Below, one piece after another: positions 46,944-61,121 of a DNA stretch of 64,000 nucleotides. The position numbers and the translations under genes were made by a program. Positions within the stretch are counted from its first letter, which is position 1. Every line of letters begins with the position of its first letter. The stretch is from Paracoccaceae bacterium (GTDB lineage: Bacteria; Pseudomonadota; Alphaproteobacteria; Rhodobacterales; Rhodobacteraceae). The notes beneath the pieces were generated by a model. That model made no database searches, was not told where the DNA came from, and saw nothing but the letters and a program-made list of their open reading frames with translations. The stretch is from the NCBI GenBank assembly GCA_024742705.1, contig JANSXZ010000016.1:8617-72616 (forward strand), read 5' to 3'.

Positions 46944-47113
46944 ACAGGCTACAACCTCAAGGGAAACCGGTCAGGTCTTTGCCGCGTTCCGCTCACAACG
47001 CATCCAGCGTGCCGCGTTTTCAGCACGAAATGCCACCGGTACTTGCCACCCGGGCGTGGCTCTTTCACAGTGATCGCCGGCGCGGCGACCGCAAAGGGGG
47101 GGGAAGGCCGGAG

Positions 47114-48499
47114 GTGAACCACAGTCCACGGGATCTTCCGCAGATCGACGCGCTTCTGGGGCTTGCGGGCATAGATGCGCTGGTGCGCAGGTATTCGCGG
47201 GCCGAAACCGTCGCGGCGCTGCGCGCGGCCACCGGCGCCTTGCGCGCGCGGATGCTGGCCGGCCAGGCGACGGTGCTGCCGGATTTCACGGCGCCGGAAT
47301 TCGCCGAAACCGTCGCGGGGCACATCGCGGCGGCGCGGCGGCCCGCCATGCACCGCGTCGTCAATGCCACCGGCATTCTGATCCACACGAACCTGGGGCG
47401 CGCGCCGCTGGCAGAGGCCGCGCTGGCAGCGGTGGCGCAGGCCGGAGCCGCGCCCGCGACGCTGGAATACGACATCGTCACCGGCGGCCGGGGCGCGCGG
47501 CACGACCATGTGCGCGGCCTGATATGCGATCTGACAGGCGCCGACGACGCGCTGGTCGTCAACAATTGCGCGGCGGCGGTGCTGCTGGCGTTGACGGCGA
47601 CGGCGCGCGGGCGTGGGGTGATTGCATCGCGCGGCGAACTGATCGAGATCGGCGGATCGTTCCGGATGCCCGATGTCATCGCCCAGAGCGGCGCGCGCCT
47701 GATCGAAGTGGGCACCACCAACCGCACCCGGACGGGCGACTATGCCAACGCCATCGACGACGACACCGCCGTTCTGCTGAAAAGCCACACCAGCAACTTC
47801 CGGGTGGTCGGCTTTGCCGAGGCACCCGCGCGCGCCGAACTGGCCGCGCTGGCACGGGCCCGCGGCCTGATCCTGATCGAGGATCTGGGCAGCGGTGTCC
47901 TGGTCGATCTGGCGCGGTTCGGCCTGCGCGAGGAACCGGTGGTGGGCGATGTCCTGCGCGCGGGCGTTGATCTGGTGCTGTTTTCCGGCGACAAGCTGCT
48001 GGGCGGGCCCCAGGCCGGCATCATCGCCGGGCGCGCCGATGTGATCCAGCGGCTCGGGGCGCACCCGCTGGCCCGCGCGCTGCGCATCGACAAGCTGTCG
48101 CTGGCCGCGCTGGCGGCGACGCTGCGGCTGTACCTGCCGCCGCATGATCCCTTGCGCCTGATCCCGGTGCTGCGGATGCTGTCGCAGCCCGCAGACACGG
48201 TGCGGCAGCGGGCCGAAACGCTGGCCGCGATGCTGCCCCGGGCGCTAAAGGTTGCGGTCTGCGCGACCGCCGCCCAGGCCGGTGCCGGATCGCTGCCGCA
48301 ACAGGATCTGCCCAGCTTCGGCTTGCGCGTCAACGCGCCCGGCCTGTCGCCCGACGCGCTGGCCGCCCGGCTGCGCGGCGCCGAAACGCCCATCATCGGG
48401 CGGGTGGCGCGGGGCGCCGTCGTGCTCGACATGCGCGGCGTCGAGGATCACGAATTGCCGCTGATCCGCACCGCGCTCGGGGCGCCGGATATCGCATGA
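47114..48499 (+). CDS. selA: L-seryl-tRNA(Sec) selenium transferase
   Basis: LPQIDALL N-terminus, NNCAAAVLL, and the PLP-Lys motif FSGDKLLGGPQAG. I infer a GTG start at 47114 (GGAAGG 7 nt upstream) from alignment with the E. coli SelA N-terminus as I remember it. Confidence 0.92.
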   Translation: MNHSPRDLPQIDALLGLAGIDALVRRYSRAETVAALRAATGALRARMLAGQATVLPDFTAPEFAETVAGHIAAARRPAMHRVVNATGILIHTNLGRAPLAEAALAAVAQAGAAPATLEYDIVTGGRGARHDHVRGLICDLTGADDALVVNNCAAAVLLALTATARGRGVIASRGELIEIGGSFRMPDVIAQSGARLIEVGTTNRTRTGDYANAIDDDTAVLLKSHTSNFRVVGFAEAPARAELAALARARGLILIEDLGSGVLVDLARFGLREEPVVGDVLRAGVDLVLFSGDKLLGGPQAGIIAGRADVIQRLGAHPLARALRIDKLSLAALAATLRLYLPPHDPLRLIPVLRMLSQPADTVRQRAETLAAMLPRALKVAVCATAAQAGAGSLPQQDLPSFGLRVNAPGLSPDALAARLRGAETPIIGRVARGAVVLDMRGVEDHELPLIRTALGAPDIA

Positions 48500-50364
48500 C
48501 CTCATGCGCGGTGGTTGTGCTGGGCCATGTCGATCACGGCAAATCGGCACTGGTGGAGGCCCTGACCGGCACCCGGACCGACCGCCTGCCCGAAGAGCGC
48601 GCGCGCGGTCTTTCAATCGTGCCCGGCTTTGCCCATTGCGCCTGCGATGCGGGCATCGTCGATCTGATCGACGCGCCAGGCCACCGCGACTTCATCCGCG
48701 CCGTGGTTGCGGGGGCTTCGGGCGCGGCGGCGGCGGTTCTGGTTGTATCGGCGGTCGACGGCCTGCGCGCCCAGACCCTGGAACATCTGGCGATCTCGGG
48801 GTTCCTGGGGCTGATCCCGGCGTTTGTCGCGGTCACGCAGATCGACCGTATCGCGCCGCGCGACCGGCGCGCCTGCCTTGCGCGTATCGCCGGCGCGCTG
48901 GCCGGCACGGGTTTTGCACAGGTGCCGCGCATTGCCTGTTCGGCGGTCACCGGCGAGGGCCTCGGAGATGTGCGCGCCGCGCTTTGCGGCCTGTTGCGGC
49001 GGCCGCCGCCGGATCGAGCCCTTCCGCCCGGCGCGTTCCTGCCGGTCGACCGGGCCTTTGCGCTGCCCGGACGCGGCACCGTTGTCACCGGCACCCTGCT
49101 GGGCGCGCCCCTGGCGCAAGGCGACCGGCTGGTGCTGCATCCCGGCGGCCATGCCGCCCCGGTGCGCGAACTGCACAGCCGCGGAGAACCCTGCGCGCAG
49201 GTGGCCCCCGGCGCGCGGGTGGCTGTCAACCTGCGCGGCGTGGCGCTGGGCGATGTGGCGCGCGGCGCGGTGCTGCATGCACCCGGCGCCGTGCGGCCCG
49301 GACGGTGTGTGGATGTCTGGCTGCGGCTGGGGCCCGGCCCAGACAGCGCGCTGCGGCACATGGACCGGCTGTGGGTGATGTTCGGCGCCACCGGCGCGGT
49401 GGCGCAGGTGCGCCTGCTGGGTGGCGGACAGATGGCCGCCGGCGGGTCCGGGCCGGCGCAATTGCGGTTTGAAACGGCGGTGGTGGCCTACAGCGGGCAA
49501 CATGCGGTGCTGCGCCGGCTTTCGCCCGCCGCGACGATCGGCGGGGCCGTGATCCGCGACCCCGAGGCGACCCCAGCGCGCGCCGGCGATACCGAACGCG
49601 CCGCGCTGTTGCGGGCGGCAGAAACCGGCGATGCCGGGCGCATCGCCGCCGCGCTGATCGATGCGGGCCGCGGCATCGCCGACCGCGCGCATCTGGCACG
49701 GCTGATCCCCGGCCTGCCGAACGCGCTGCCCCGCGGGTATGTGGTGGTGCAGGGCGATCGGTTCGTCAGCGGCGATGCACTGGCCGCCTGCCGCGCCGAT
49801 CTCTGCGCGCGGTTGCAGACTGCCCACGACCTTGCGCCACTGAAACCGCTGGTGCCGCGCGCCGCCCTGCACGACAGGACGTGGCCCGCGCCGCTCTGGC
49901 GGGCGGCCGAAGCCGATCTGATCCGCGATGCGCGAGTGCGTGCCGCCGACGCGGGGCTGGCGCTGGCCGGCCATGACCCCGACGCCCGGATCACCCCCGC
50001 CCAGCGCGCCCGCCAGCACGCCATGGCCCGTGCCCTTCTGGAAGGCGGTCTTGCGCCGCCCACGCCAAAGGAGCTGTGCGCCGATGAAACCGACACCGAT
50101 CTTCTGGCGCTGCTGATCGCGGGCGGCACGGCCGTGGCCCTGCGCAATGTCGCGCTGAACCGGACGCTGGTGTTTCACCATGAGACGCTGAACACCGCCG
50201 CGCGCACCCTGCGCACCGCCTTCGCCCGGCCCTTCACCACCGGCGAGGCGCGCGGCGCGCTGGCCACCACGCGTCGGGTCATCGTGCCGGTTCTCGAACA
50301 TCTCGATGCGCGCGGCCTGACCGAACGCAGCGGCGATCTGCGCCGGTGGGCCGGGCCGCGCTGA
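48496..50364 (+). CDS. selB: selenocysteine-specific translation elongation factor
   Basis: G1 GHVDHGKS and G3 DAPGH, then a long C-terminal winged-helix extension. Its ATG overlaps the selA stop (ATGA). Confidence 0.92.
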   Translation: MTSCAVVVLGHVDHGKSALVEALTGTRTDRLPEERARGLSIVPGFAHCACDAGIVDLIDAPGHRDFIRAVVAGASGAAAAVLVVSAVDGLRAQTLEHLAISGFLGLIPAFVAVTQIDRIAPRDRRACLARIAGALAGTGFAQVPRIACSAVTGEGLGDVRAALCGLLRRPPPDRALPPGAFLPVDRAFALPGRGTVVTGTLLGAPLAQGDRLVLHPGGHAAPVRELHSRGEPCAQVAPGARVAVNLRGVALGDVARGAVLHAPGAVRPGRCVDVWLRLGPGPDSALRHMDRLWVMFGATGAVAQVRLLGGGQMAAGGSGPAQLRFETAVVAYSGQHAVLRRLSPAATIGGAVIRDPEATPARAGDTERAALLRAAETGDAGRIAAALIDAGRGIADRAHLARLIPGLPNALPRGYVVVQGDRFVSGDALAACRADLCARLQTAHDLAPLKPLVPRAALHDRTWPAPLWRAAEADLIRDARVRAADAGLALAGHDPDARITPAQRARQHAMARALLEGGLAPPTPKELCADETDTDLLALLIAGGTAVALRNVALNRTLVFHHETLNTAARTLRTAFARPFTTGEARGALATTRRVIVPVLEHLDARGLTERSGDLRRWAGPR

Positions 50365-50433
50365 CAGGGGCGCCGCTGGACAATGCGGCCACTGCGCGCG
50401 ATGCTGAACCCGATCACAGCCGGAGACCGCAGC

Positions 50434-52026
50434 ATGCCCACCACACCGCCAACCGCCCTGAGCCTCGCGGATCTGTCCGGCCACCCCCACGACCTGCCGC
50501 CCGCGGGCGCCGCGCTGATCTGTTTCGTCAAGGATGATTGCGAAACCTGCAATGTCGCGGCGCCGGTTCTCGGGGCGCTGCACCGGGCCTTCGGCGCGGA
50601 TGTCGCGGTGCGGGTCGTGGCCCAGTCGGGCGCCGCCAACCAAGCCTTTGCCCGGCGCCACGCGCTGGAGATGCCGGTTCTGGACGACACCGCGCTGCGG
50701 GCCGCCTTCACCTGGGACATCGAGGCGGTGCCATCGGTTTTTCTGCGCGACGCCGACGGCGCCACCGTCACCCGGTTCGAAGGATTCGTGCGCGACGACT
50801 GGCAGGCGCTGGCCGGACGGCTTGCCGAGATGACGGCCCGGCCCGCCGCGCAGATCGATTGGGACAGCCTGCCGGCCTGGCGTCCGGGCTGCGGATCGGC
50901 CCATCTGGACCCGGCGGTGAACAACCGGTTGCGCGCCGAAGCCGATGACAGCCCGATCCGCGCCCGCCGGATCGAGGTGGCACCAGCCGACGACATGGCC
51001 GAATTCCTGTTCGACCAGGGGTTCTCGGACGGTTTGCCCCTGGTGCCGCCAACACCCGAACGGGTGCTTCGGATGCTGGGCGGCACACACCGCGACCCGC
51101 AGGAGATCGTTGCCACCGTGCCCCCCAACATGGGCATCGCCACCGTCGAGAAGATCGCGATCAACGCCGTCATGGCCGGATGCAAGCCAGAGTACCTGCC
51201 GGTGGTGATCGCGGCGGTCGAAGCGGTCTGTACCGATGCCTTCAATGTCCATGGCGTCACCGCGACGACCATGGGCGCATCTCCGGTGATGGTGGTGAAC
51301 GGGCCGATCCGCGACCGTATCGGCATGAACAAGGGCCTTGGCGCGCTGGGTGCGGGCAACCGCGCGAATGCCACCATCGGACGCGCGCTGCGGTTGGTCG
51401 TGCGCAATGTGGGCGGCGCGTCCAGCGGCGGTGTCGAACGGTCGACGCTGGGCAATCCGATGAAGTTCACCATGTGCTTCGCGGAATGGGAGGAACGTTC
51501 GCCATTTCCGCCGTTGCATGTGGAACGCGGGTTCGACGCCGGCGATTCCGTGGTGACCGTGTTTGCCATGACCGGCGGCCCGGTGCACATCGTCGATCAG
51601 ACCTCGCGCAGCCCCGATCAGGTGGCCGGATCGCTGGGCCAGGGGCTGGAATCCGTTTTCCTGCCGAAGATGCACAACCTGCCCATCGACGCGCTTCTGG
51701 TGGTGTGCCCCGAACATATCGACACGCTGACGCGCGACGGCCCCTACAGCAAGGAGCGCCTGCGCGCGCGGATTCAGGATGTCACCTCGCGGCCGTTGTC
51801 CGAGATGCTGGCCGATGCGGCATCCGGCGCCGGCATCGGCCCCGAGGACGCCGCCCGGCTGGGCCCCGAGGCGCTGGCCGCGCCGGCGCCGAAATTCGCC
51901 AGCACCGATTACATCCACATCGTTGTCGCCGGATCCGATGCGGGCAAGTTCTCGTCGGCGTTCCACGGATGGGTCACCGGGCCGACGGGATCGACGGTGG
52001 TTTCGCGCAAGATCGATCTGGGCTAG
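50434..52026 (+). CDS. thioredoxin-fold (CxxC) domain protein with a large uncharacterised C-terminal domain
   Basis: The N-terminal roughly 150 aa are redoxin-like with ICFVKDDCETCN (CxxC). The remaining roughly 380 aa (GFSDGLPLVPPTPERVL..., AINAVMAGCKPEYLP) match no family I can name. GGAG lies 8 nt before the ATG at 50434. Confidence 0.8.
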   Translation: MPTTPPTALSLADLSGHPHDLPPAGAALICFVKDDCETCNVAAPVLGALHRAFGADVAVRVVAQSGAANQAFARRHALEMPVLDDTALRAAFTWDIEAVPSVFLRDADGATVTRFEGFVRDDWQALAGRLAEMTARPAAQIDWDSLPAWRPGCGSAHLDPAVNNRLRAEADDSPIRARRIEVAPADDMAEFLFDQGFSDGLPLVPPTPERVLRMLGGTHRDPQEIVATVPPNMGIATVEKIAINAVMAGCKPEYLPVVIAAVEAVCTDAFNVHGVTATTMGASPVMVVNGPIRDRIGMNKGLGALGAGNRANATIGRALRLVVRNVGGASSGGVERSTLGNPMKFTMCFAEWEERSPFPPLHVERGFDAGDSVVTVFAMTGGPVHIVDQTSRSPDQVAGSLGQGLESVFLPKMHNLPIDALLVVCPEHIDTLTRDGPYSKERLRARIQDVTSRPLSEMLADAASGAGIGPEDAARLGPEALAAPAPKFASTDYIHIVVAGSDAGKFSSAFHGWVTGPTGSTVVSRKIDLG

Positions 52027-52052
52027 CGTGATCGCGAAAGGAGGAGAAGCAT

Positions 52053-52571
52053 ATGACAACAATTCTCGACCCGACAGACGAACGCGAACCCGTCGCGCGG
52101 CAGACAACGCCGCGCCCGACGGATCTGCGCGGCGTTGTCGGACTGCTGGACATCAGCAAACCGCGCGGCAATGTCCTGCTGGACGAACTGGCGCGGCTGC
52201 TGACGGACCATGCGCCGGGGCTGGAAGTGCGGCGCTACAAGAAGCCGACCTTTACCAAACCCTGCCCGGATGCGCTGCGCCAGCAGATCCGCGACGAATG
52301 CGATTTCGTCGTCGAAGGTCTGGCCGACTGAGGATCCTGTACGACGTGCAGTATGCACGACACAGTCTGGTTTGAAATCCAGAACATTCCTTCGGTCTCG
52401 GTCGCCTCGGCGGTGTTCGACGAAGCCGCCGATCACCAGCGCCGCGCACTGGGCATGGACGACGCCCGCTATGTGCTGGTGCCGCATCCGATCCAGGATG
52501 CCACCGATGACGAGATGCGCGCCAAGGCACAGGATGCCGTAAGCCGCATCCTGGCCGCGCTGACAGCGTGA
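52053..52571 (+). CDS. selenoprotein with a U-G-S-C motif (UGSC-type); the in-frame UGA at 52329-52331 is read as selenocysteine
   Basis: Track ORFs 52053..52331 and 52353..52571 are in the same frame (offset 300 nt). Read-through gives ...FVVEGLAD-U-GSCTTCSMHDTVWFEIQNIP... with unbroken GC3-rich codon usage, a SECIS-like hairpin just downstream, a strong AAGGAGGA RBS, and selA/selB directly upstream. Confidence 0.85.
52335..52370 (+). promoter_or_regulatory. bacterial SECIS-like stem-loop
   Basis: Core CGUGCA-GUA-UGCACG (52345-52359) is extended by CUGU/ACAG (52337-40 / 52362-65). The apical G and U lie at +20/+21 from the UGA, the same spacing and near-identical upper stem as I recall for E. 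coli fdhF (GCAGGUCUGCAC). Confidence 0.75.
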
Positions 52572-52576
52572 CACGC

Positions 52577-52605
52577 GCCGGCCCCACCTTCGGGATGGGG
52601 GCGGC
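52577..52605. terminator. GC-rich hairpin between the convergent selenoprotein and giant exoprotein genes
   Basis: GCCG-G-CCCCA / loop CCTTCGGGA / TGGGG-G-CGGC: 9 bp with one mismatch and no U-tract on either strand. Confidence 0.35.
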
Positions 52606-52613
52606 GCAGCCCG

Positions 52614-55600
52614 TCAGATGACGATCATATCGGCGGTGATATCGGCCAGAACGGTGTTCTGGAACTGAATCCGTGTGCCCTGATCTTCGAAGGACACATA
52701 GGCATCCTGCCCTTCGAACAATTGCGGCCCCTGCGAGAACAGCGCCAGCACGGCATCGGCATCGGCGTAGCCAAAGCCGTTGAAGGCCAGGGTATCCCAG
52801 GTTTCCAGATCTTCCACCTGGTGGCTGCCCCCGTCGGCCTGATCGAACACGAACTGATCCGACAGAATGCCGCCGCGCAGGATGTTGTCCCCGCCCCCGC
52901 CATCGAGAACGTCGTCGGTGCCCTGTGCCCTGACCCAGGCGGCCACGTCGGCGTTGGTGGCGGCGATGAACTCGGGGCTCTGCGAGAACCCGCGCACCAC
53001 CTCGACACGCGAAAGGCCCCCGTCCATCAGCGCCAGCCAGCTGGCCACTTCCGCATCGGCGGGCGAACGGCCCAGAACGTTGTTGTAGAGCAGCGACACG
53101 AACGCCGTGTCATCGAGCGCACCGTAGGTCAGTCCGAATTCGTCCGACGCGGTGAAACCTCCGACAACGCTCAGGAATTCGGTGCCGCCGGCCAGTTGCG
53201 TGGCCCAGCCCGTCAGCCCGGCCACATCCGGTTCGCGGTCCAGCGTCGCCTTGTAGAGACGGAACACGTCGTCGGTCCAGTAGCTGCTGGCGCTTTGCTG
53301 GATGAAAACGTCGAACGACGCGGTGGTCTGCGCCTCGAATTCGGGGCTGAGCGACAGGCCCAGAACGACACCTTCGCGCGACCCGCCGTTCGCCAACTGT
53401 TCAAGCCAGCCGTTCAGGCCGGTTTCGTCCGCCGACCGGCCCAGCACGTTCTGATAGAGCGTTTCGATAAAGCTGCGGTCGTCCAGCGTTCCGTAGGTTT
53501 TCAGGAACTCCTGCGAGGTGATGAAGGCGGTTGTGATCTCGGGCAGCGGCAGGTTGCGGAACTGGCTGCCGTAATCCATCCATCCCGCAAAGCCCACCGC
53601 ATCCGGGTCACGATCCAGCGTGGCGCGGTACAGCCTGTAAAGCTGGGCGCCGGGCAGACCTTCATAGCGGAACAGCCCGCGCAGATCGCCCGAAAGCTCA
53701 TCGCTGCTTTCGGCAAGGTCGCTGCCGATCAAAAGGTCGTTGCCGCCGTTCCCGACCAGAACGTTGCGAACGTTCTGGGAATCGGGGGACGGCGCAGCGA
53801 TCAGCCGTTCGGCTTCGGGCGTGCCCATGGCCAGAAAGACATTGTTGGCATCCGGTGTCGCGCGCAATTCGGGACGGGCGGCAATGCCCGAAAGGGTTTC
53901 AGAGAACACCGCGCCCGTACCGCCGAACGCATCGGTTGTCTGCACCAGAACCGAAATCGCTGCCCCGGCATCTGCCAGGTTCAGCGTATAGGTCTGGTCT
54001 GTGGCGCCCGAGATCTGCACCCCGTTGCGCTGCCACTGATAGGTGGTTTCGGTGATCCCGTCCTCGTCGGTCAGGTCGGGTCGGGCGGTCACGGTGCTGC
54101 CTTCGACGGCGGGGCCGGTGATCCGCACCGTGCCGGTCAGCGGATCGTCGCGGTTGCTCACCGCTTGCGTCGGCAGCGACGTGACCGTTTCCAGCGTGCC
54201 TGCTGCGTCGGTATAGCTGACGCGCACGGAAATCTGTGCGTTCACATCCGGCTGGCGCAGCTGATAGGTTGCTTCGGTCGCGCCGGGGATGGGCGTGCCG
54301 CCGCGCAGCCATTCGTAGGAAAACGCGCCAATTCCATCGACGTCGCGCAGATCGGTCAGAACCCTCAGGGTATCGTCTTCCCGGGCAGTGCCCGACACGG
54401 AAACGGTGCCTTCGGGTTCGTCGTTGACATCGACAACAGGTTCGGTGCGCGCGGAATCCACTTCTTCGCGGGTCGACTGATCATCGGTGTAGGCAACGGT
54501 GACAGAGATCCTCTGGCCCACGTCCTGCTGGGTGGTGGTATAGGTGGCATCGGTCGCGCCCGCGATGGCCGCATCGCCGCGCTTCCACTGATAGGAAAAC
54601 GCGCCGCTGATACCGTCGCTGTCACTCAGCCCGGAGGCATCCGCCGACAGGACCGCCCCCTGCACCGCATCGCCACTCAGGATAACCTCGCCAACGGGCA
54701 GGTCGTTGATGTTGCGCACCACCTGACCGGGCGAGGATTCCACCGTTTCCTCGGTCCGGAAAAGATCGGTGTACCGCGCCTGAACGGTCACCCGCGCGCC
54801 CACGTCCGCCTGCCCCAGCGTATAGCTGGTGCCGGTGGCACCGGACACCGGATCGCCATCGCGCAGCCACTGATAGGTAACGTCTTCGGGCCGGAAGGTA
54901 TCGTAATCGGTCAAGGTCGAGATATCGGCGGTAAGAACCGCGTCTTCGATCCTTTCGCCGGACACACCTACAGAACCGATGGGCGTATGGTTGCGCCCCA
55001 CGCCTTCCAGCGTCAGCGTGCCGCCGTCGTGAAAGGTGATGAACCTGTTGCCATCGCCGTCCAGCGTGACCTGCATCTGCGCAAGCTGATCGAGGGTGAA
55101 GCCGCTCAGGTCGATTGAATCGCGGCTTTGCTGATAATCGGTGATGACATCGTTGCCGTCCCCCGGAGCGAAGACGAACGTGTTGCCCGTGCTGAACGAG
55201 GTGCCGCCCGACAACCGGTCGTCGCCGGTGCCGCCGATCAGCGTGTCAGACCCGCTGCTGCCGGTGATCGTGTCGTTGCCGGCCTGGCCGTCCAGCCTGT
55301 CATCGCCCGCGTCGCCCTGCACCGAATCGTCGGCCTGGGTACCGGTGAAGGCGTCGTTGCCGTTGCCCATGTCGATGATGTCGAACACCTCGTAGGACGT
55401 GATCCCGGAGAGATCGAAGGTATCCGCGCCATCGGTGCCGTCGAGATCGCCGTTCACCAGGTCCAGCCTTTCGATCGCCGCCGATGCCGGCAGGTTGATC
55501 TGCTGAAACAAGCCTTCGGTCGGGCGATACAGGTCTTCTCCGGCGCCGCCGTTCAACGTGTCGTCGCCACCGTGGCCCAGAATGGTATCGTCGCCGCCGC

Positions 55601-57515
55601 CTGCCTGAATGTCGTTGGCGCCGGCGTCATCCTCAAGCGAATCCGCCGCATCGCTGCCCACGAGGTTCTCGATGCCGATCAACGCCTCGACAGGGCCAGT
55701 CCCGTCCAGAGCGCCGGTGCGCCCCTGTTCCAGCGAGGCAAAGCCGCCGGTGCCGGGATCCATCACGAAGGTGTCGCGCCCACCTTGCCCGTCGAACCGA
55801 TCGACGCCGGCATTCTGCTCCAGACGGTCGTCGCCATCCCCGGCAAGGATGTGATCGTCGGCCGCGGTGCCTGCAAGGGTTTCGTCCCCTGCTCCGCCGA
55901 TGATGGTGTTGTAACCGTCCGCCGCCTGGTAGCTGATGCCGTAGAGATTGGCCTGCGCCTGCCACAGAACGATGATCCCGTCATCGGTGGCGGCGGTAAC
56001 CGGGTCGTAATTGTTGCCCACCAGGTTGTCGACACGGTCGGTGACCGATGCCATCGGCCCCTGAACACCGTTGGCATCAATGAAGCCCGCGAAGGCATCG
56101 GTGCCAAAGGCGACACCCTCCCGGTCGGTGATCGTGTTGGCCTCGAAGGACAGCCAGGCGCCACCGCCGGGCGCGGAAACCAGGCTGACCTGATCGTTCG
56201 ACGACTGCCGCGCATATGGCATTTCCACCGGACGGGTGTTCACGGCGCCATCGACATATGTGCTCAGCAACAGCCGGCCCTCGGTCGTCGCCACCACTGC
56301 GGCCAGGGCATCGGGCCCCAGGTTGGCATAGGCGGCGTAGTTGATCCGCTCATCGGGGTTCATGTCGATCAGCGTGGCCTGCCCGTTCGCCGAAACCGCG
56401 CCGGTGGCTTCATCGACGGTGTAGAGCCGCAACGCGAGATCCACGAAGTTGCGGCCGAACTGGTCGGTCTGGCCTGCCGTCTGATACAGCAGCGCATAGC
56501 CGTCGCCATAGGCTATGGCGGTATCATGGCTCAGGAACCCCGAACCGTCGAAGACGTTGGTGGCCAACGTCGCGCCGTCGGAATCCAGTATGTGGGTGAT
56601 CACTTCGGTGCCGCTGGAATTGTCGCGCGTCAGCACCAGCCGGTCGTTCGCGATCGCGCTCAGGTTCATGTCGCCGCGGCTCAGTCGATCGCCGACGGCG
56701 ACCGTCTGCTCGTCGCCACGCATACTGCCGTCGGCCTCGAACATCTGGATCCGGATCGCTGCGCCGGGGCCGGCCTGGGATGACGATGCGTGCAACTGTT
56801 CCATCCAGGCCACGGCGAATCCGCCATCGGGCAACGCGGCGATCATCGGATCGCTGTTTTGCGTAACGATCAGCCGGGGCGAGCTCTGGACGTAATCCGC
56901 GCCGAAGGGCGCCGAGGTAAAGACAACCGCGCCATCGCCATTCAGGATCTGCACCACGTTCTTGGTGTTGTCGGCGCCCGGCAGATCACCGTCGCGCAGT
57001 GTGAGCACCCGCGCGACATTGCCACCGGTCAGCGATGCCACTGTCTGCCAGTCGTTCAGGTTGGACCGGAACTCGAGTTCGGTGTCGTATTGCACCACGC
57101 GGGTTTCGGCATGCCACGGCAGCGCACCGGTGGTCAGCGTGACCACGGTGCCGTCAAGGCGTGTAACCGTTTCCACATCGCGCACCAGCGACATCGATTC
57201 CACGACAAAGATGGAATTCAGCGTGTTCACCTGGGTGTGTATGATCCGGTGCGTATAGCCGGGATAGAGGATCGGATCGACCTCAAGCACCAGATCGCCG
57301 ACCAGGTCCAGGCTATTGGTGCCGGGAAAAACCACTTCCACCCGATCCGCGCCGGTTCCGCCATCCACCCGGACATAATCCGTGGTCTGGCCGCTGAACC
57401 CGTCAAACCCCGGCGGCAGCGTGATCACATCGTCGCCCGCCAACGTCACCACCAGCCCCGCCGCGGTCGGTGCCTGGATCACATCGTCGCCCAGGGTTCC
57501 AAAAATCGTCGTCAT
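52614..57515 (-). CDS. giant Ca-binding repeat exoprotein: N-terminal repeat region, RTX-type GGxGxD repeats, four Ig-like tandem repeats, four DUF4214 units, C-terminal RTX-type tail
   Basis: About 1630 aa and very acidic, rich in D, G and T. It contains GGAGDETLAGTAADDHILAGDGDD... nonapeptide-like runs, LYQNVLGRSADETGLNGW-type DUF4214 motifs, and no N-terminal signal peptide, so type I secretion is plausible. Start preferred at ATG 57515 (GGAAGG RBS); the track start is 57539. Confidence 0.85.
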   Translation of the reverse strand: MTTIFGTLGDDVIQAPTAAGLVVTLAGDDVITLPPGFDGFSGQTTDYVRVDGGTGADRVEVVFPGTNSLDLVGDLVLEVDPILYPGYTHRIIHTQVNTLNSIFVVESMSLVRDVETVTRLDGTVVTLTTGALPWHAETRVVQYDTELEFRSNLNDWQTVASLTGGNVARVLTLRDGDLPGADNTKNVVQILNGDGAVVFTSAPFGADYVQSSPRLIVTQNSDPMIAALPDGGFAVAWMEQLHASSSQAGPGAAIRIQMFEADGSMRGDEQTVAVGDRLSRGDMNLSAIANDRLVLTRDNSSGTEVITHILDSDGATLATNVFDGSGFLSHDTAIAYGDGYALLYQTAGQTDQFGRNFVDLALRLYTVDEATGAVSANGQATLIDMNPDERINYAAYANLGPDALAAVVATTEGRLLLSTYVDGAVNTRPVEMPYARQSSNDQVSLVSAPGGGAWLSFEANTITDREGVAFGTDAFAGFIDANGVQGPMASVTDRVDNLVGNNYDPVTAATDDGIIVLWQAQANLYGISYQAADGYNTIIGGAGDETLAGTAADDHILAGDGDDRLEQNAGVDRFDGQGGRDTFVMDPGTGGFASLEQGRTGALDGTGPVEALIGIENLVGSDAADSLEDDAGANDIQAGGGDDTILGHGGDDTLNGGAGEDLYRPTEGLFQQINLPASAAIERLDLVNGDLDGTDGADTFDLSGITSYEVFDIIDMGNGNDAFTGTQADDSVQGDAGDDRLDGQAGNDTITGSSGSDTLIGGTGDDRLSGGTSFSTGNTFVFAPGDGNDVITDYQQSRDSIDLSGFTLDQLAQMQVTLDGDGNRFITFHDGGTLTLEGVGRNHTPIGSVGVSGERIEDAVLTADISTLTDYDTFRPEDVTYQWLRDGDPVSGATGTSYTLGQADVGARVTVQARYTDLFRTEETVESSPGQVVRNINDLPVGEVILSGDAVQGAVLSADASGLSDSDGISGAFSYQWKRGDAAIAGATDATYTTTQQDVGQRISVTVAYTDDQSTREEVDSARTEPVVDVNDEPEGTVSVSGTAREDDTLRVLTDLRDVDGIGAFSYEWLRGGTPIPGATEATYQLRQPDVNAQISVRVSYTDAAGTLETVTSLPTQAVSNRDDPLTGTVRITGPAVEGSTVTARPDLTDEDGITETTYQWQRNGVQISGATDQTYTLNLADAGAAISVLVQTTDAFGGTGAVFSETLSGIAARPELRATPDANNVFLAMGTPEAERLIAAPSPDSQNVRNVLVGNGGNDLLIGSDLAESSDELSGDLRGLFRYEGLPGAQLYRLYRATLDRDPDAVGFAGWMDYGSQFRNLPLPEITTAFITSQEFLKTYGTLDDRSFIETLYQNVLGRSADETGLNGWLEQLANGGSREGVVLGLSLSPEFEAQTTASFDVFIQQSASSYWTDDVFRLYKATLDREPDVAGLTGWATQLAGGTEFLSVVGGFTASDEFGLTYGALDDTAFVSLLYNNVLGRSPADAEVASWLALMDGGLSRVEVVRGFSQSPEFIAATNADVAAWVRAQGTDDVLDGGGGDNILRGGILSDQFVFDQADGGSHQVEDLETWDTLAFNGFGYADADAVLALFSQGPQLFEGQDAYVSFEDQGTRIQFQNTVLADITADMIVI
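52960..53650 (-). repeat. four DUF4214-like units within the giant gene
   Basis: LYRATLDRDPDAVGFAGW, LYQNVLGRSADETGLNGW...SPEF, LYKATLDREPDVAGLTGW...SDEF and LYNNVLGRSPADAEVASW...SPEF. Confidence 0.75.
53880..54970 (-). repeat. four tandem 92-94 codon coding repeats (period 276-282 nt)
   Basis: A conserved core (S/T)Y(Q/E)W.R.G..I.GAT...Y.L...DVG..I.V...YTD recurs, with the Trp codon at 54867, 54585, 54309 and 54033. Confidence 0.85.
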
Positions 57516-57709
57516 CGCGCGAAGCCTTCCAAAAATCACAACAAGCCCTTGCAGCAGTAATCAAATCCCGGAAAATGAGCAACCTGTTGGCAAATATTGA
57601 TAAATGCCCTGCGCGGGTTCGTGCCGCTATGCTGCGCTGCGGTAAATTCGCTGCCGCGCGGCAGGGCACGCCGATTTGCACCGCGCCGCGCCCGTGCTAA
57701 GGCGCCGCC

Positions 57710-58756
57710 ATGATCCTTACCCTGCGCTCTCTGCGGCATCTGGCCGACCTGGAATTCGACGATGTCATCGACGTGCGCGCGCCGGCCGAGTTCGCCCAGG
57801 ACCGCCTGCCCGGCGCGATCAACCTGCCGGCGCTCGACGATGACCAGCGCGCGCGGGTTGGCACGATCTATGTTCAGCAAGACAGGTTCGTGGCCCGCAA
57901 GATCGGGGCCGCGATGCTGGCCCGCAATGTCGCCGCACATCTGGACGGCGCGTTGGCCGACCGTGACGGCGGCTGGCGGCCATTGGTGTATTGCTGGCGC
58001 GGCGGGCAGCGGTCGGGCGGCTTTGCTACCATTCTCGAACAGATCGGATGGCGCGTGGTCCGGCTGGACGGTGGTTACAAACGCTACCGGCGTCTGGTTG
58101 TCGATATGCTTTACAAAGATCCGCTGCCGCACCGGCTGATCCTTGTGGCGGGCGGCACCGGCACGGGCAAGACCGCGGTTCTGGCCCGGCTGGAGGCGGC
58201 GGGCGCGCAGGTCGTCGATCTCGAGGCACTGGCCGCGCATCGCGGATCGCTGTTCGGCGCAGAACCTGGCGGACAACCGGCACAAAAGCTCTTTGAAACC
58301 GGCCTGGCGGCACGGCTGGCAGCCTGTGACCCGGCGCGCCCGGTGTTCATCGAAGCCGAAAGCAACAAGATCGGGCGGCTGACCCTGCCGCCAGCGCTGT
58401 GGGACGCGATGAAATCCGCCGAGGCCGTCGTTCTGGACGCACCGCTTGGGGCGCGCGCGGCCTTCCTGACCCGGCAATACGGCGAAAGGTGGGGTCCGCC
58501 CGAACGGCTTTTGCCCAAGCTTGACGCGCTGCGGCCGTTTCACCCTGCCGACCGCATCGCGCAGTGGCAGATCATGGCCCGCAAGACCCGGCTGGAACCC
58601 TTGGTCGCGGATCTGATCCGCCATCATTACGATCCGCGCTATGCGATGCCGGGACCGGCGCGCGCCGCAGCGCCTGTGCATGTCGCCCTGCCCGATCTCT
58701 CTGACGCCAGCCTGGATGCGGCCTGCGCCACGGTTCTGGCCCAGGTCACACGATAA
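57710..58756 (+). CDS. selU: tRNA 2-selenouridine synthase
   Basis: Rhodanese domain with VIDVRAPAEF and the catalytic VYCWRGGQRSG, followed by the P-loop GGTGTGKT; 348 aa. Confidence 0.92.
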   Translation: MILTLRSLRHLADLEFDDVIDVRAPAEFAQDRLPGAINLPALDDDQRARVGTIYVQQDRFVARKIGAAMLARNVAAHLDGALADRDGGWRPLVYCWRGGQRSGGFATILEQIGWRVVRLDGGYKRYRRLVVDMLYKDPLPHRLILVAGGTGTGKTAVLARLEAAGAQVVDLEALAAHRGSLFGAEPGGQPAQKLFETGLAARLAACDPARPVFIEAESNKIGRLTLPPALWDAMKSAEAVVLDAPLGARAAFLTRQYGERWGPPERLLPKLDALRPFHPADRIAQWQIMARKTRLEPLVADLIRHHYDPRYAMPGPARAAAPVHVALPDLSDASLDAACATVLAQVTR

Positions 58757-60914
58757 CGGTCGGCGGCCCCGCTTCGAAACGCCCGATCACCGCCGCCCGG
58801 TGGCCCGCCGCGCACAGGGCGGCAACCGCCGGTGCGGCCGCTTCAGGCGGCATCGCGGCCAGAAGGCCCCCGGCCGTCTGCGGATCGTGCAGCAAGACCG
58901 GCCCGGCCCCACCCGTTGCCCCGGCATTGGCCGCGAACAACGTCGAGCGCACACCAGCCTTGGCCGCCTGCGCCGCGCCATCATAGAGCGGCACCGCCGG
59001 CCAATCGACGCGCGCGGCAACCTCGCTGGCCCGGCAAATCGCAAGAAGGTGCCCCGACAGCCCGAAGCCGGTGACATCCGTCATCGCCCGCGCCCCGGCC
59101 AGAAGCCGCGCGGCATCGTCCTGCGGGGTCTGCATGATATCGAGCATGGCGATCACGTCGGCGCCGCGCGCGCGCCCGGCCATTTCCGCCGCCAGCAGCG
59201 TGCCGCTGCCCAACGGCCGGGTCAGCACGATGCAATCGCCCGGACGCGCCCCGCGATGGGTCAGCGTCTGCGCCCCGGCCAGCCCGGTCAGCGCGAAGCC
59301 CAGGCTCATCTCTGCGCCGGTCATGCTGTGGCCACCCACCACATCCGCCCCGGCCGCGCGCAGAACGTCGCCGGCGGCCTGCATCACCTCGGCCCAGACC
59401 CGCGCCTGAATGGCCGGCGCCATCGGCGGCAGGATCACCGTGGCCAGCGCCGCCTGCGGCGCCGCCCCCATCGACCAGATATCGCCCAGCGCATGCACCG
59501 CCGCGATGCGGGCAAACCGCCGCGGATCGGCGGTGAAGGCGCGCAGGTGATCGGTGGTGAAAACCTGCCGGCCAGTCCCACCCCAGCGCAAAACCGCCGC
59601 ATCGTCGCCCGGCGCCGACAGCACATCGTCGCGCCGCATGTCGGGCAGGCCGTGCAGGCCATCGGCCAGAACCGCACCACCGATCTTCGATCCGCAACCG
59701 GCACAGATCGGTCGGCCACCGCGCATTTCCGCCGCCACCCCCTGCGCCGCCGTCCGCGGCGGCCGCGGGGCGGGCATCGGCGGCAGATCGGTCAGCTTGT
59801 CCATGAACCGCCGGTCGATGCGGTCCTTCCAGCGCCACAACGCCGGCGCGGCCAACGTCAGGCCGAATTTTTCCCCCAGCGCCGACTGGCCACCCAGCGA
59901 CACCAGCTTCAGATAATGCCGCTGCGGGCGGAACCGGCGCAGCGGCGCCCCGGTCAGCGCCGCCCGCAGGTTGGCATGAAGCACGGGCGCCGCGCGCACC
60001 GCGAACACGCCGGCCTTGGGGCGCGGGCTGGCCTGCATGTGCGCGCAGTCACCCACCGCGAACAGCCCGCGCCATCCCGGCACAGCAAGGTCCGGGCCGA
60101 CACGGATGAAACCGTCGTTCAGCGGCAGATCGGTATCGCCCAGCCAGGGCCACGGTGTGGCCCCCGCCGCGCCGACGGTAAATTGCGACGGCAGCTCGCG
60201 GCCATCGGCAAGCTGAACGCCGTCCGCCGCGATCCGCGCGACCGGCACGCCGGTCTGGACGGTGACGCCCAGCCGCTCCATCGCGTGCCGGACATGCAGA
60301 CGGGCGCGCGCGCCCATGCCTGTCAGGCCCGGCGCCGCCTCGATCACCCGCACCCGCGATCCCGGCGCCGGGCCGCGCAGGGCGTGGGCCATCGCCAGCG
60401 CCAGTTCACAGCCGGCCACGCCGCCGCCGATCACCGCCACCTGCACCGGCGCGCCGGTATCGGCCGCGCGCGCCAGGAACCCGCGCCAGGCATCGGCAAA
60501 TCGGTCCAGCGGCTTGGCCCCGATGGCATGATCGGCAAATCCCGGAAGGGCCGGCATTTCGGCGGTTATGCCGATGTCGATACTGGCGACGTCGTAGGGC
60601 ACCGGTGCGCCTTGGGCCAGCCGCACAACGCGCGCTTCCGGATCGACATGCACCGCACGATCCACCAGCAGCCGCGCGCCGGCGAAACGCGCCAGCCGCA
60701 CCAGATCGATGTCCAGCGCACCGCGCCCATAGTGCCCGGCCACATGCCCCGGCAACATCCCGGTATAGGGCGCATCGGGCGCCGGGTTGATCACTGTCAC
60801 CCGCACCCCGGCCAACGGGTTCATGCCCCAGCGGCGCAAAACCAACGCATGTGCGTGGCCGCCACCCACCAGAACCAGATCGCGGGTGACGGGCACCGGC
60901 ATCGTCTGTTGCAT
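58746..60914 (-). CDS. selD: FAD/NAD(P)-dependent pyridine-nucleotide-disulfide-type oxidoreductase fused to selenide, water dikinase
   Basis: N-terminal LVLVGGGHAH and a second VAVIGGGVAGCE dinucleotide-binding motif (about 350 aa), then a SelD core beginning ICAGCGSKIGG (Cys/Lys active-site loop) and AIR-synthase-like domains. ATG at 60914 with a GGAGAC RBS. The upstream 58 codons of the track ORF are rejected. Confidence 0.88.
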   Translation of the reverse strand: MQQTMPVPVTRDLVLVGGGHAHALVLRRWGMNPLAGVRVTVINPAPDAPYTGMLPGHVAGHYGRGALDIDLVRLARFAGARLLVDRAVHVDPEARVVRLAQGAPVPYDVASIDIGITAEMPALPGFADHAIGAKPLDRFADAWRGFLARAADTGAPVQVAVIGGGVAGCELALAMAHALRGPAPGSRVRVIEAAPGLTGMGARARLHVRHAMERLGVTVQTGVPVARIAADGVQLADGRELPSQFTVGAAGATPWPWLGDTDLPLNDGFIRVGPDLAVPGWRGLFAVGDCAHMQASPRPKAGVFAVRAAPVLHANLRAALTGAPLRRFRPQRHYLKLVSLGGQSALGEKFGLTLAAPALWRWKDRIDRRFMDKLTDLPPMPAPRPPRTAAQGVAAEMRGGRPICAGCGSKIGGAVLADGLHGLPDMRRDDVLSAPGDDAAVLRWGGTGRQVFTTDHLRAFTADPRRFARIAAVHALGDIWSMGAAPQAALATVILPPMAPAIQARVWAEVMQAAGDVLRAAGADVVGGHSMTGAEMSLGFALTGLAGAQTLTHRGARPGDCIVLTRPLGSGTLLAAEMAGRARGADVIAMLDIMQTPQDDAARLLAGARAMTDVTGFGLSGHLLAICRASEVAARVDWPAVPLYDGAAQAAKAGVRSTLFAANAGATGGAGPVLLHDPQTAGGLLAAMPPEAAAPAVAALCAAGHRAAVIGRFEAGPPTVIV

Positions 60915-61121
60915 CGCTTCGTCTCCGCCCGTTGCCCCGATCCGCCCGTACCGTGCCCGCATCACCCCACCACCGGCAAGCCGATCAGGCCGGTTTTTTT
61001 CGCCCGTCACGCGATAGGGGCACGCCGGCACAGGCGTTTCGCCGCTGTACCAAACAAGGCAGTTGAAAAACCGCCTCTGGCCAGCCATGCTGATACGAAT
61101 TCAAGTCAGGGATGGTTGTTC

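What the first reader, a model, noticed from the sequence alone, without database searches (positions are those of the whole stretch)
52053..52571. In-frame UGA recoded as selenocysteine joins two ORFs into one 172-aa U-G-S-C selenoprotein
ORFs 52053..52331 and 52353..52571 share a frame and are separated only by TGA plus seven sense codons. The merged product reads ...CDFVVEGLAD-U-GSCTTCSMHD..., a UxxC redox-type motif placed right after a hydrophobic beta-strand-like segment. GC3-biased codon usage continues uninterrupted across the stop. A stop-to-stop ORF caller, as in the supplied track, splits this gene into two fragments. I recall a family label of UGSC (seleno)protein in public annotation, with no assigned function; that recollection needs checking.
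Basis: partly seen in the sequence, partly recalled or inferred. Interest (0 to 1): 0.85.

Follow-up and report, generated by a model that had tools for sequence, protein, structure and literature searches.

The report
Known UGSC selenoprotein gene, correctly spotted
The in-frame UGA at 52329 is a real selenocysteine codon in a member of the UGSC selenoprotein family, which has been known since 2007 but has no known function; the gene is ordinary for a marine Rhodobacteraceae genome, but its conserved partner gene gives a lead on what the family does.

Summary
ATG 52053 to TGA 52329-52331 and on to TGA 52569-52571 is one frame encoding 172 aa with ...VVEGLAD-U-GSCTTC.... The merged protein passes the curated models NCBIfam NF041046 "UGSC family (seleno)protein" (165.6 bits, cutoff 125) and Pfam PF24696, and both alignments span the UGA.

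All 80 orthologous loci fetched, from several phyla, have TGA at this column followed by a conserved reading frame. Of 78 diverged full-length relatives, 66 have Cys there. A hairpin at 52337-52365 meets every published bacterial SECIS criterion. Three codons in its upper stem and loop (ACG, TGC, AGT) show essentially no synonymous variation across 81 sequences, and there is one compensatory change. selA and selB lie just upstream; selU and an Ndh-SelD fusion lie just downstream.

The family has been described since 2007-2008, so this is already known.

What I add:
- UGSC sits directly after a 547-aa protein (TlpA-like CxxC domain plus an unannotated ~360-aa domain) in 73 of 80 loci.
- Elsewhere that unannotated domain is fused to Cys-type UGSC domains.
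- The predicted UGSC structure (pLDDT 95) looks flavodoxin-like, not thioredoxin-like.

I infer a two-protein selenol/thiol redox enzyme. Its substrate is unknown.

The parts
52040..52046 (+). Shine-Dalgarno-like GGAGGAG, 6 nt upstream of the start codon
   Evidence: Read directly from the sequence.
52053..52571 (+). UGSC family selenoprotein gene, 172 aa, a single CDS read through the UGA
   Evidence: NF041046 165.6 bits (residues 28-171) and PF24696 169.1 bits (residues 3-171) align across the UGA. Orthologues begin MTTILDPTDER.
52329..52331 (+). UGA decoded as selenocysteine (residue 93), first residue of the U-G-S-C motif
   Evidence: TGA at the homologous column in 80 of 80 loci. Cys at that column in 66 of 78 diverged full-length relatives.
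52337..52365 (+). Bacterial SECIS hairpin. Lower stem 52337-52340/52362-52365, upper stem 52345-52350/52354-52359, apical loop GUA 52351-52353. An optional outer helix pairs 52332-52336 with 52369-52373.
   Evidence: MFE -8.8 kcal/mol. The upper stem is paired in 100% of 53 distinct sequences, with G-C, G-U and A-U at pair 18-30. Codons ACG/TGC/AGT have about zero synonymous entropy. It meets the published bSECIS constraints (PMC13188914).
50383..52026 (+). Conserved partner gene. The N-terminal TlpA/ResA-like thioredoxin-fold domain carries C53-E-T-C56. A linker carries C170. The C-terminal ~360-aa domain has no family model and an invariant Cys267 (AGC[KR]PEY). The database copy starts at Met18 (50434).
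   Evidence: Directly upstream of UGSC in 73 of 80 loci at 51-76% identity. The C-terminal domain is fused to Cys-type UGSC domains in P0373, P0308, P0362, P0310, P0389 and P0377. No Pfam or NCBIfam hit at E <= 10. Foldseek matches ResA/TlpA for the N-terminal domain. Cys conservation. P0390 is 100% identical and named a TlpA family protein of a Rhodobacteraceae MAG.
48496..50364 (+). selB, the Sec-specific elongation factor, with a C-terminal winged-helix SECIS-binding domain
   Evidence: TIGR00475 at 3e-65, PF09107 at residues 579-617, PF25461.
46979..48499 (+). selA, selenocysteine synthase. The ORF as listed; the true start is probably further downstream, since the HMM match begins at residue 51.
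   Evidence: TIGR00474 550 bits, PF03841 470 bits.
57710..58756 (+). mnmH/selU, tRNA 2-selenouridine synthase (part of the selenium island, not needed for Sec insertion)
   Evidence: NF008752 439 bits.
58746..61088 (-). Pyridine nucleotide-disulfide oxidoreductase fused to SelD (selenophosphate synthetase)
   Evidence: TIGR03169 489 bits, TIGR00476 275 bits; Pfam domains.

Best explanation
Bases 52053-52571 are one gene for a 172-aa member of the UGSC selenoprotein family. The UGA at 52329-52331 is read as selenocysteine. Sec-tRNA(Sec) is made by SelA, using selenophosphate from the Ndh-SelD fusion, and SelB delivers it. I infer that SelB is recruited by the mRNA hairpin at 52337-52365, whose apical G-U lies 19 nt after the UGA. 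The hairpin lies inside the codons for G-S-C-T-T-C-S-M-H-D, so this stretch serves as both protein code and RNA signal. The predicted protein is a five-stranded alternating beta/alpha domain that looks flavodoxin-like. Sec93 sits just before the helix that follows strand 3, and Cys96 lies three residues further on, which suggests a U-x-x-C selenosulfide/selenol redox centre. I infer that it is the selenium-bearing redox subunit of a two-protein cytoplasmic oxidoreductase. Its partner is the 547-aa protein encoded immediately upstream: a TlpA-like CxxC domain plus an unannotated ~360-aa domain with invariant Cys267, which is probably the catalytic or substrate-binding part. Reducing equivalents would pass between the CxxC, the UxxC and Cys267. 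The substrate is unknown. Shown: the frame, family membership, TGA conservation, the Sec/Cys pair, the RNA constraint, the gene pairing and the fusions. Inferred: SelB-hairpin binding, the redox relay and its direction.
For: Family membership: above curated cutoffs and spanning the UGA.
TGA conservation: 80 of 80 loci from Gammaproteobacteria, Caulobacterales/Hyphomonadaceae, Dehalococcoidia, Binataceae and Acidobacteria. At least 590 stretches matched in species-representative genomes encode a relative.
Sec/Cys pair.
SECIS: fold. The upper stem is 100% paired and 5 of its 6 pairs are invariant. Pair 18-30 is G-C in 30 sequences, G-U in 21 and A-U in 2, the last being a double change in the unrelated L034 and L068. 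Sliding the partner by 1-3 nt drops pairing of the tested two-helix structure from 93% to 19-54%. Across 81 sequences Thr+5 is ACG in 97%, Cys+6 is TGC in 81/81 and Ser+7 is AGT in 81/81, one of six Ser codons, whereas most other conserved degenerate codons have normalised entropy 0.4-1.0. The published bSECIS constraints are all met: loop 3-9 nt, upper stem at least 4 bp, G[G|U] at the start of the loop, 16-37 nt from the UGA, MFE <= -7.5 (PMC13188914).
Machinery in the window: selA, selB, selD.
Partner: 73 of 80 loci; Rosetta-stone fusions at 31-54% identity; invariant Cys residues.
Fold: AF2 pLDDT 95.1, pTM 0.89; Foldseek hits are flavodoxin-like folds.
Against: No tRNA(Sec) gene lies in the window, so selC must be elsewhere in the genome and could not be checked.
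The hairpin is not more stable than shuffled sequence (z = -1.43). Covariation is thin because the stem is almost invariant: only 2 sequences show a double change, and whole-structure covariation is only modestly above shuffles (18 of 500 reach it).
The lower stem changes register between lineages.
Nothing here measures selenium incorporation.
The redox-relay mechanism rests on gene adjacency, fusions and conserved Cys/Sec residues only. The partner's C-terminal domain has no recognisable fold or family.
Six Tepidiformaceae/Dehalococcoidia loci lack the partner within 6 kb.
Confidence: 0.93

Rival explanations
1. The TGA is a real stop. The locus then holds a 92-aa gene plus an independent 72-aa gene starting at ATG 52353, or a decayed pseudogene.
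For: Gene callers output exactly these fragments. An ATG happens to lie 7 codons after the TGA in this organism.
Against: In most orthologues the residue at that position is Leu or Val, so the C-terminal half has no start codon, yet it is conserved in frame in 80 of 80 loci. Curated HMMs span the stop. Cys-type relatives are continuous. A pseudogene would not keep TGA plus a synonymous-site-constrained hairpin across phyla.
Confidence: 0.02
2. The TGA is a sequencing or assembly error in a TGC/TGT Cys codon, or TGA is read as Trp or Gly under another genetic code.
For: Some database entries show G, W or R at this column. In one of them the DNA reads GGA (L081).
Against: The same TGA is found in 80 independent assemblies. 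The gene itself also ends in TGA, and selA/selB/selD are adjacent. The GGA contig has neighbouring genes split into pieces, which suggests an error-prone assembly, and it still keeps the SECIS sequence.
Confidence: 0.01
3. The gene is a true selenoprotein, but UGSC acts alone as a general thioredoxin-like antioxidant, as the literature assumes. The upstream gene is then an unrelated TlpA-type disulfide reductase that merely shares an operon.
For: The literature groups UGSC with proteins said to have a Trx-like fold and general redox roles (PMC2398784, PMC13188914). Six loci lack the partner nearby. Many Cys-type UGSC relatives are stand-alone proteins of 175-220 aa.
Against: The adjacency holds in 73 of 80 loci across distant phyla, while all other neighbours vary. 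Independent fusions join Cys-UGSC to the partner's C-terminal domain. The model is not a thioredoxin fold.
Confidence: 0.15

Closest known systems
UGSC-containing selenoprotein (NCBIfam NF041046, Pfam PF24696; reference ABI76733.1 of Hyphomonas neptunium)
   Same: The same family by curated HMM cutoffs. The U-G-S-C motif, length of about 172 aa and SECIS position match, and it shows 57-73% identity to the fetched orthologues, including Hyphomonas loci L039 and L053.
   Different: Nothing of substance. This copy has Cys at 'KPCP' where most orthologues have Ala, and Met rather than Leu or Val after the SECIS loop codon.
Cys-type UGSC-like proteins (D-C-G-S-C), stand-alone or fused to the unannotated ~360-aa domain
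   Same: They match the same family profile, and presumably share the fold. The CxxC aligns with the UxxC, and D92 and D103 are conserved.
   Different: They have Cys instead of Sec and no SECIS. Positions 98-102 are variable there but invariant (T-C-S-x-H) in Sec forms. In the fusions the UGSC domain occupies the position that the TlpA-like domain has in this window's partner.
Thioredoxin-fold UxxC selenoproteins (Trx-like, Prx-like and DsbA-like families of marine metagenomes)
   Same: A UxxC redox motif just before a helix, Sec/Cys interchange, a bSECIS directly after the UGA, and abundance in aquatic bacteria (PMC2398784).
   Different: The predicted topology is an alternating beta-alpha x5 domain. 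The best structural matches are flavodoxin-like folds at TM 0.4-0.5, and there is no thioredoxin-fold hit in the top 50.
Glycine/proline reductase selenoprotein B (GrdB/PrdB, PF07355), whose UxxCxxC-type motif I recalled from memory
   Same: The Sec clade has U-x-x-C-x-x-C, and the selenoprotein works with partner subunits.
   Different: There is no Pfam GRDB match and no such structure among the listed top 50 Foldseek hits. The third Cys is not conserved in Cys-type relatives. The resemblance is therefore superficial.

Membership tests
UGSC family (seleno)protein (NF041046 / PF24696) | Score above the curated whole-protein cutoff, with the alignment covering both sides of the Sec column | tested here: met
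   NF041046: 165.6 bits against 125, residues 28-171 on profile positions 4-147 of 147. PF24696: 169.1 bits against 25, residues 3-171.
UGSC family (seleno)protein (NF041046 / PF24696) | A U/C-G-S-C motif at the conserved position after a hydrophobic strand ending in A-D or G-D | tested here: met
   VVEGLAD-U-GSC in the window. The same motif is in 80 of 80 orthologues. GDCGSC is found in Cys forms.
Bacterial selenoprotein gene (SelB-dependent UGA recoding) | In-frame TGA conserved in orthologues and aligned with Cys in homologues (Sec/Cys pair) | tested here: met
   80 of 80 loci have TGA. 66 of 78 representatives have Cys.
Bacterial selenoprotein gene (SelB-dependent UGA recoding) | A bSECIS: apical loop of 3-9 nt starting G[G|U], upper stem of 4-16 bp, 16-37 nt from the UGA, MFE <= -7.5 kcal/mol (PMC13188914) | tested here: met
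   Loop GUA, 6-bp upper stem, 19 nt spacing, -8.8 kcal/mol. The stem is conserved, with a G-C/G-U/A-U pair and frozen synonymous sites.
Bacterial selenoprotein gene (SelB-dependent UGA recoding) | selA, selB and selD present in the genome | tested here: met
   selA 46979-48499, selB 48496-50364, Ndh-selD 58746-61088.
Bacterial selenoprotein gene (SelB-dependent UGA recoding) | tRNA(Sec) gene (selC) present | not testable with these tools
   ARAGORN and Rfam find none in the 64-kb window. The rest of the genome is not available.
Bacterial selenoprotein gene (SelB-dependent UGA recoding) | Selenium actually incorporated at the UGA | not testable with these tools
   This needs 75Se labelling or mass spectrometry.
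Thioredoxin-fold oxidoreductases (the literature's assumption for UGSC) | Thioredoxin fold (beta-alpha-beta-alpha-beta-beta-alpha core with a mixed sheet) | tested here: not met
   The AF2 model (pLDDT 95.1) alternates five strands and five helices. The Foldseek PDB top 50 are lumazine synthase, FMN reductases, WrbA, azoreductase, flavodiiron flavodoxin domains, TIR and receiver domains, with no thioredoxin fold. The model is of orthologue P0001 (59% identical to the window protein), not of the window protein itself.
GrdB/PrdB selenoprotein B (PF07355) | Match to the GRDB domain | tested here: not met
   The Pfam scan at E <= 0.01 returns only PF24696.
TlpA/ResA-type thiol-disulfide oxidoreductase (the partner's N-terminal domain only) | Thioredoxin fold with a CxxC | tested here: met
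   C53-E-T-C56 is 100% conserved. Foldseek matches ResA at E 5e-8 with target TM 0.76. Sequence-only scores are below the curated cutoffs (PF00578 21.2 against 26).

The most novel reading that the evidence does not exclude
UGSC is not a free-standing thioredoxin-like antioxidant. It is the flavodoxin-fold selenium subunit of a widespread, uncharacterised two-component oxidoreductase whose catalytic core is the ~360-aa domain that has no Pfam or NCBIfam model (invariant AGC[KR]PEY cysteine). The invariant T-C-S-x-H after the UxxC in Sec forms would then be imposed by the SECIS RNA rather than by protein chemistry.
Probability: 0.45. Interest if true: 0.5.

Novelty: already known. Interest (0 to 1): 0.27.

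Why it matters
For annotation, the two fragments 52053-52331 and 52353-52571 should be merged into one Sec-containing CDS. The public collection searched holds thousands of such split fragments, and some carry wrong names.

For biology, UGSC is one of the most abundant selenoprotein families in aquatic metagenomes (255 Sec sequences against 21 Cys sequences in GOS; PMC2398784), and it still has no function. Near-universal pairing with one partner gene, plus independent fusions to that partner's unannotated domain, defines a concrete two-protein system. That system could be expressed, trapped as a mixed selenosulfide and screened for substrates.

Tried and rejected
- Rfam scans at gathering threshold and at E <= 1 found no SECIS family or tRNA-Sec hit. 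I saw no sign that Rfam models this SECIS.
- Hairpin stability against shuffled sequence was not significant (z = -1.43). I relied instead on conservation and synonymous-site analysis.
- The lower SECIS stem has no single conserved register across lineages. Only the upper stem and loop are claimed as conserved.
- PDB sequence searches gave nothing for the UGSC profile, and only weak ResA hits for the partner.
- The Foldseek search with the whole partner model returned only ResA/TlpA matches to the N-terminal domain in its top 50, so the fold of the C-terminal domain stays unresolved.
- Pfam and NCBIfam scans of the partner's C-terminal domain at E <= 10 found nothing.
- Neighbourhood clustering over the 80 loci found no further conserved gene. 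Acyl-CoA dehydrogenase, CoA-transferase III, MFS, SDR, RraA-like and amidohydrolase genes each occur in 19 loci or fewer.
- The GrdB/PrdB idea, prompted by the UxxCxxC motif, was rejected.
- I guessed that the W/G/R residues at the U column in database proteins come from alternative-code translation. For P0001 the DNA really reads GGA, in a contig whose neighbouring genes look fragmented. No DNA was available for P0005.
- I could not confirm that the 'Unknown_1' domain of PMC2398784 Figure S1 is the partner's C-terminal domain, because the figure is held only as an image.
- The merged window protein could not be submitted to the structure or representative searches. Orthologue P0001 and alignment A1 stood in for it.

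Full report
**1. The observation**

- A Shine-Dalgarno-like GGAGGAG (52040-52046) precedes ATG 52053.
- The frame is open to TGA 52329-52331.
- It continues through GGA TCC TGT ACG ACG TGC AGT to the ATG at 52353, and ends at TGA 52569-52571.
- The merged product is 172 aa and reads ...CDFVVEGLAD-U-GSCTTCSMHD....
- GC3 is 0.76 on both sides of the TGA.

Open frames and GC3 alone are not unusual in this 65% GC window. It contains 113 in-frame TGAs with at least 70 open codons on each side, and 15 of these also have GC3 >= 0.75 on both sides. The evidence that matters is homology.

**2. What it is**

With Cys standing in for Sec, the merged protein passes two curated models.
- NCBIfam NF041046 "UGSC family (seleno)protein": 165.6 bits against a cutoff of 125, covering residues 28-171.
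- Pfam PF24696 "UGSC family": 169.1 bits, covering residues 3-171.

Searches of the large protein collection with the merged protein and with its C-terminal half returned 816 and 1259 hits. Most are ~94-aa proteins ending ...ALAD or ~73-aa C-terminal pieces. This is the expected result of stop-to-stop gene calling on a Sec gene. The exact 92-aa fragment from this window is also in the collection.

**3. Conservation of the UGA**

I kept the best 80 loci. They come from Pseudomonadales and other Gammaproteobacteria, Caulobacterales/Hyphomonadaceae, Dehalococcoidia/Tepidiformaceae, Binataceae and Acidobacteria.

All 80 have TGA at the homologous codon. It is followed by GSC[TM][TS]C and an in-frame conserved C-terminal half. 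In most orthologues the residue where this window has Met is Leu or Val, so the downstream half has no start codon of its own.

A profile search of 1.8 billion representative proteins gave 2378 relatives. Among 78 full-length representatives of 150-300 aa, 66 have Cys at the Sec column, within a conserved D-C-G-S-C motif. This Sec/Cys pair is the classical hallmark of a true selenoprotein.

**4. The recoding signal**

Eight nucleotides after the UGA the mRNA folds into a hairpin spanning 52337-52365.
- Lower stem: CUGU/ACAG.
- Internal loop.
- Upper stem: CGUGCA/UGCACG.
- Apical loop: GUA.
- MFE: -8.8 kcal/mol.

It satisfies every constraint of the published bacterial SECIS model (PMC13188914): a loop of 3-9 nt, an upper stem of 4-16 bp, G followed by G or U at the start of the loop, 16-37 nt between UGA and loop (here 19), and MFE <= -7.5.

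In the alignment of 81 sequences (A2) the upper stem pairs in 100% of the 53 distinct sequences.
- Five of the six pairs never vary.
- Pair 18-30 is G-C in 30 sequences, G-U in 21 and A-U in 2. The A-U cases are a double change in the unrelated L034 and L068.
- Sliding the 3' partner by 1-3 nt drops pairing of the tested structure (upper stem plus outer helix) from 93% to 19-54%.

The strongest evidence comes from synonymous sites.

| Codon | Usage across 81 sequences |
|---|---|
| Thr+5 | ACG in 97% |
| Cys+6 | TGC in 81 of 81 |
| Ser+7 | AGT in 81 of 81 (one of six Ser codons) |
| Most other conserved degenerate codons | normalised entropy 0.4-1.0 |

His+9 toggles between CAC and CAT, which is exactly the G-C/G-U pair.

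There are two caveats. Stability against shuffles is unremarkable (z = -1.43). The lower stem changes register between lineages.

**5. Machinery and context**

| Feature | Coordinates | Evidence |
|---|---|---|
| selA | 46979-48499 | |
| selB, with winged-helix domain | 48496-50364 | |
| Partner gene | 50383-52026 | see section 6 |
| UGSC | 52053-52571 | see above |
| 1641-aa RTX/DUF4214 gene, convergent | 52614-57539 | |
| selU/mnmH | 57710-58756 | |
| Pyridine-nucleotide oxidoreductase-SelD fusion | 58746-61088, minus strand | |

No tRNA(Sec) gene is in the window. A protein 100% identical to the partner is annotated in a Rhodobacteraceae MAG (P0390), which places the window in that family.

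**6. The partner gene**

The 547-aa protein encoded 26 nt upstream lies directly before UGSC in 73 of the 80 loci, at 51-76% identity.
- One of the remaining seven loci (L028) begins at the UGSC gene.
- The other six (L052, L054, L062, L065, L071, L078), all Tepidiformaceae or Dehalococcoidia, have no partner within 6 kb.

By contrast, selA and selB are adjacent in only 18 of the 80 loci, mostly alphaproteobacterial. Every other neighbour family occurs in 19 loci or fewer.

The partner's N-terminal 150 residues form a TlpA/ResA-like thioredoxin fold with C53-E-T-C56 (Foldseek E 5e-8, target TM 0.76).

Residues ~185-547 have no Pfam or NCBIfam match even at E <= 10 and no PDB sequence match. 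Homologues of the 547-aa protein are nonetheless very numerous: at least 7995 scored.

Several proteins carry an N-terminal Cys-type UGSC domain fused to this same C-terminal domain at 31-54% identity: P0373, P0308, P0362, P0310, P0389 and P0377.

Cys conservation in the partner:

| Residue | Two-gene type | Fusions |
|---|---|---|
| Cys267 (AGC[KR]PEY) | invariant | invariant |
| Cys53, Cys56, Cys170 | 100% | absent |
| Cys365 | 99% | 60% |

PMC2398784 mentions a "UGSC/Unknown_1" fusion. This may be the same domain, but I could not verify it.

**7. Fold**

An AlphaFold2 model of orthologue P0001 (59% identical to the window protein; 71-row alignment) has pLDDT 95.1 and pTM 0.89. It consists of five alternating strand-helix units. 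The Sec position lies between strand 3 and helix 3, and Cys96 and Cys99 lie in the N-terminal part of that helix.

Foldseek against the PDB returns flavodoxin-like folds at TM 0.4-0.5: lumazine synthase, FMN reductases, WrbA, azoreductases, flavodiiron flavodoxin domains, TIR and receiver domains. No thioredoxin fold appears in the top 50. The literature's description of UGSC as likely Trx-like (PMC2398784; PMC13188914) is therefore not supported by this model.

**8. A side inference on dual coding**

In Sec forms the residues T98, C99, S100 and H102 are invariant. In Cys forms they vary: C99 is Cys in 22 and Trp in 21 of 66, and H102 is His in only 23 of 66. These codons form the SECIS upper stem and loop. 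Their invariance in the Sec clade may therefore be imposed by the RNA. The functional motif would then be UxxC rather than UxxCxxC.

**9. Mechanism**

Decoding follows the standard SelA/SelB/SelD pathway, with the hairpin acting as the SelB-binding SECIS. This is established for the pathway in general and inferred for this gene.

For function, I infer a cytoplasmic selenol/thiol relay among three centres: the TlpA-like CxxC, the UGSC UxxC, and Cys267 of the unannotated domain, which is probably the catalytic or substrate-binding part. No signal peptide or membrane segment is evident in either protein by eye; this was not tested with a predictor. The substrate is unknown. In Gammaproteobacteria the lineage-specific neighbours are organic-acid and CoA-metabolism genes, which is not decisive.

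**10. Rivals**

- A true stop, or two separate genes. This is contradicted.
- A sequencing error or an alternative genetic code. This is contradicted by 80 independent assemblies, by the gene's own TGA terminator, and by the adjacent sel genes. The one database copy checked that had Gly at the column does read GGA in the DNA, but its contig has fragmented neighbouring genes and keeps the SECIS.
- UGSC acting alone, independent of the partner. This remains possible at about 0.15.

**11. Verdict**

The finding is correct and well read, but it is a member of a family described since 2007-2008 and covered by curated HMMs, so I rate it already known. Interest is 0.27. The residual value lies in the annotation fix and in three observations made here: the conserved partner with its fusions, the non-thioredoxin fold, and the overlap between SECIS and protein constraints. 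Together these make the family's unknown function experimentally approachable.

Noticed in passing
window 50935-52023 (+), residues ~185-547 of the gene upstream of UGSC: This ~360-aa domain has no Pfam or NCBIfam model even at E <= 10 and no PDB sequence match, although at least 7995 homologues of the 547-aa protein that carries it were scored. It has an invariant Cys in AGC[KR]PEY and motifs GLP[LI]VPPT, ATT, NGP and IGRA.RL. Public records name the protein only by its N-terminal TlpA/peroxiredoxin-like domain.
   Followed up: partly
window 46979-61088: A selenium-utilisation island: selA, selB, partner, UGSC, then selU/mnmH (57710-58756, +) and an Ndh-SelD fusion (58746-61088, -). It is interrupted by a convergent 1641-aa RTX/DUF4214/Ig-like repeat gene (52614-57539, -). 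No tRNA(Sec) gene lies anywhere in the 64 kb.
   Followed up: partly
window 52344-52358 (codons +5 to +9 after the UGA): The residues T-C-S-x-H are invariant in Sec-type UGSC proteins but variable in Cys-type relatives. Their codons (ACG TGC AGT xTG CAY) form the SECIS upper stem and loop, so the apparent UxxCxxC motif may be imposed by the RNA.
   Followed up: partly
L081 2775-2780 (protein P0001); also P0002-P0005: Full-length database copies have G, W or R at the Sec column. In L081 the DNA reads GGA instead of TGA while the SECIS is intact, and the neighbouring genes on that contig are split, which suggests assembly or polishing errors rather than a real Gly variant.
   Followed up: partly
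proteins P0138 and P0174 (C-terminal UGSC fragments): Some 73-74-aa C-terminal fragments of UGSC genes carry the source name 'alkanesulfonate monooxygenase SsuD', an evident misannotation that has been propagated in public records.
   Followed up: no
window 48001-50000: The selB region is 74.6% GC, against 63-69% for most of the window. A second peak of 71% lies at 58001-60000, over the end of selU and the selD fusion.
   Followed up: no
window, e.g. TGA at 26429 (+), 2087 (-), 39665 (-): Fourteen other in-frame TGAs are flanked by at least 70 open, GC3-rich codons on both sides. Most look like adjacent genes sharing a frame or antisense shadows. None was tested for being a second selenoprotein.
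   Followed up: no
loci L052, L054, L062, L065, L071, L078 (Tepidiformaceae/Dehalococcoidia): These Sec-type UGSC genes have no homologue of the 547-aa partner within 6 kb, unlike the other 73 loci. Whether the partner is encoded elsewhere in these genomes or replaced by something else is unknown.
   Followed up: no
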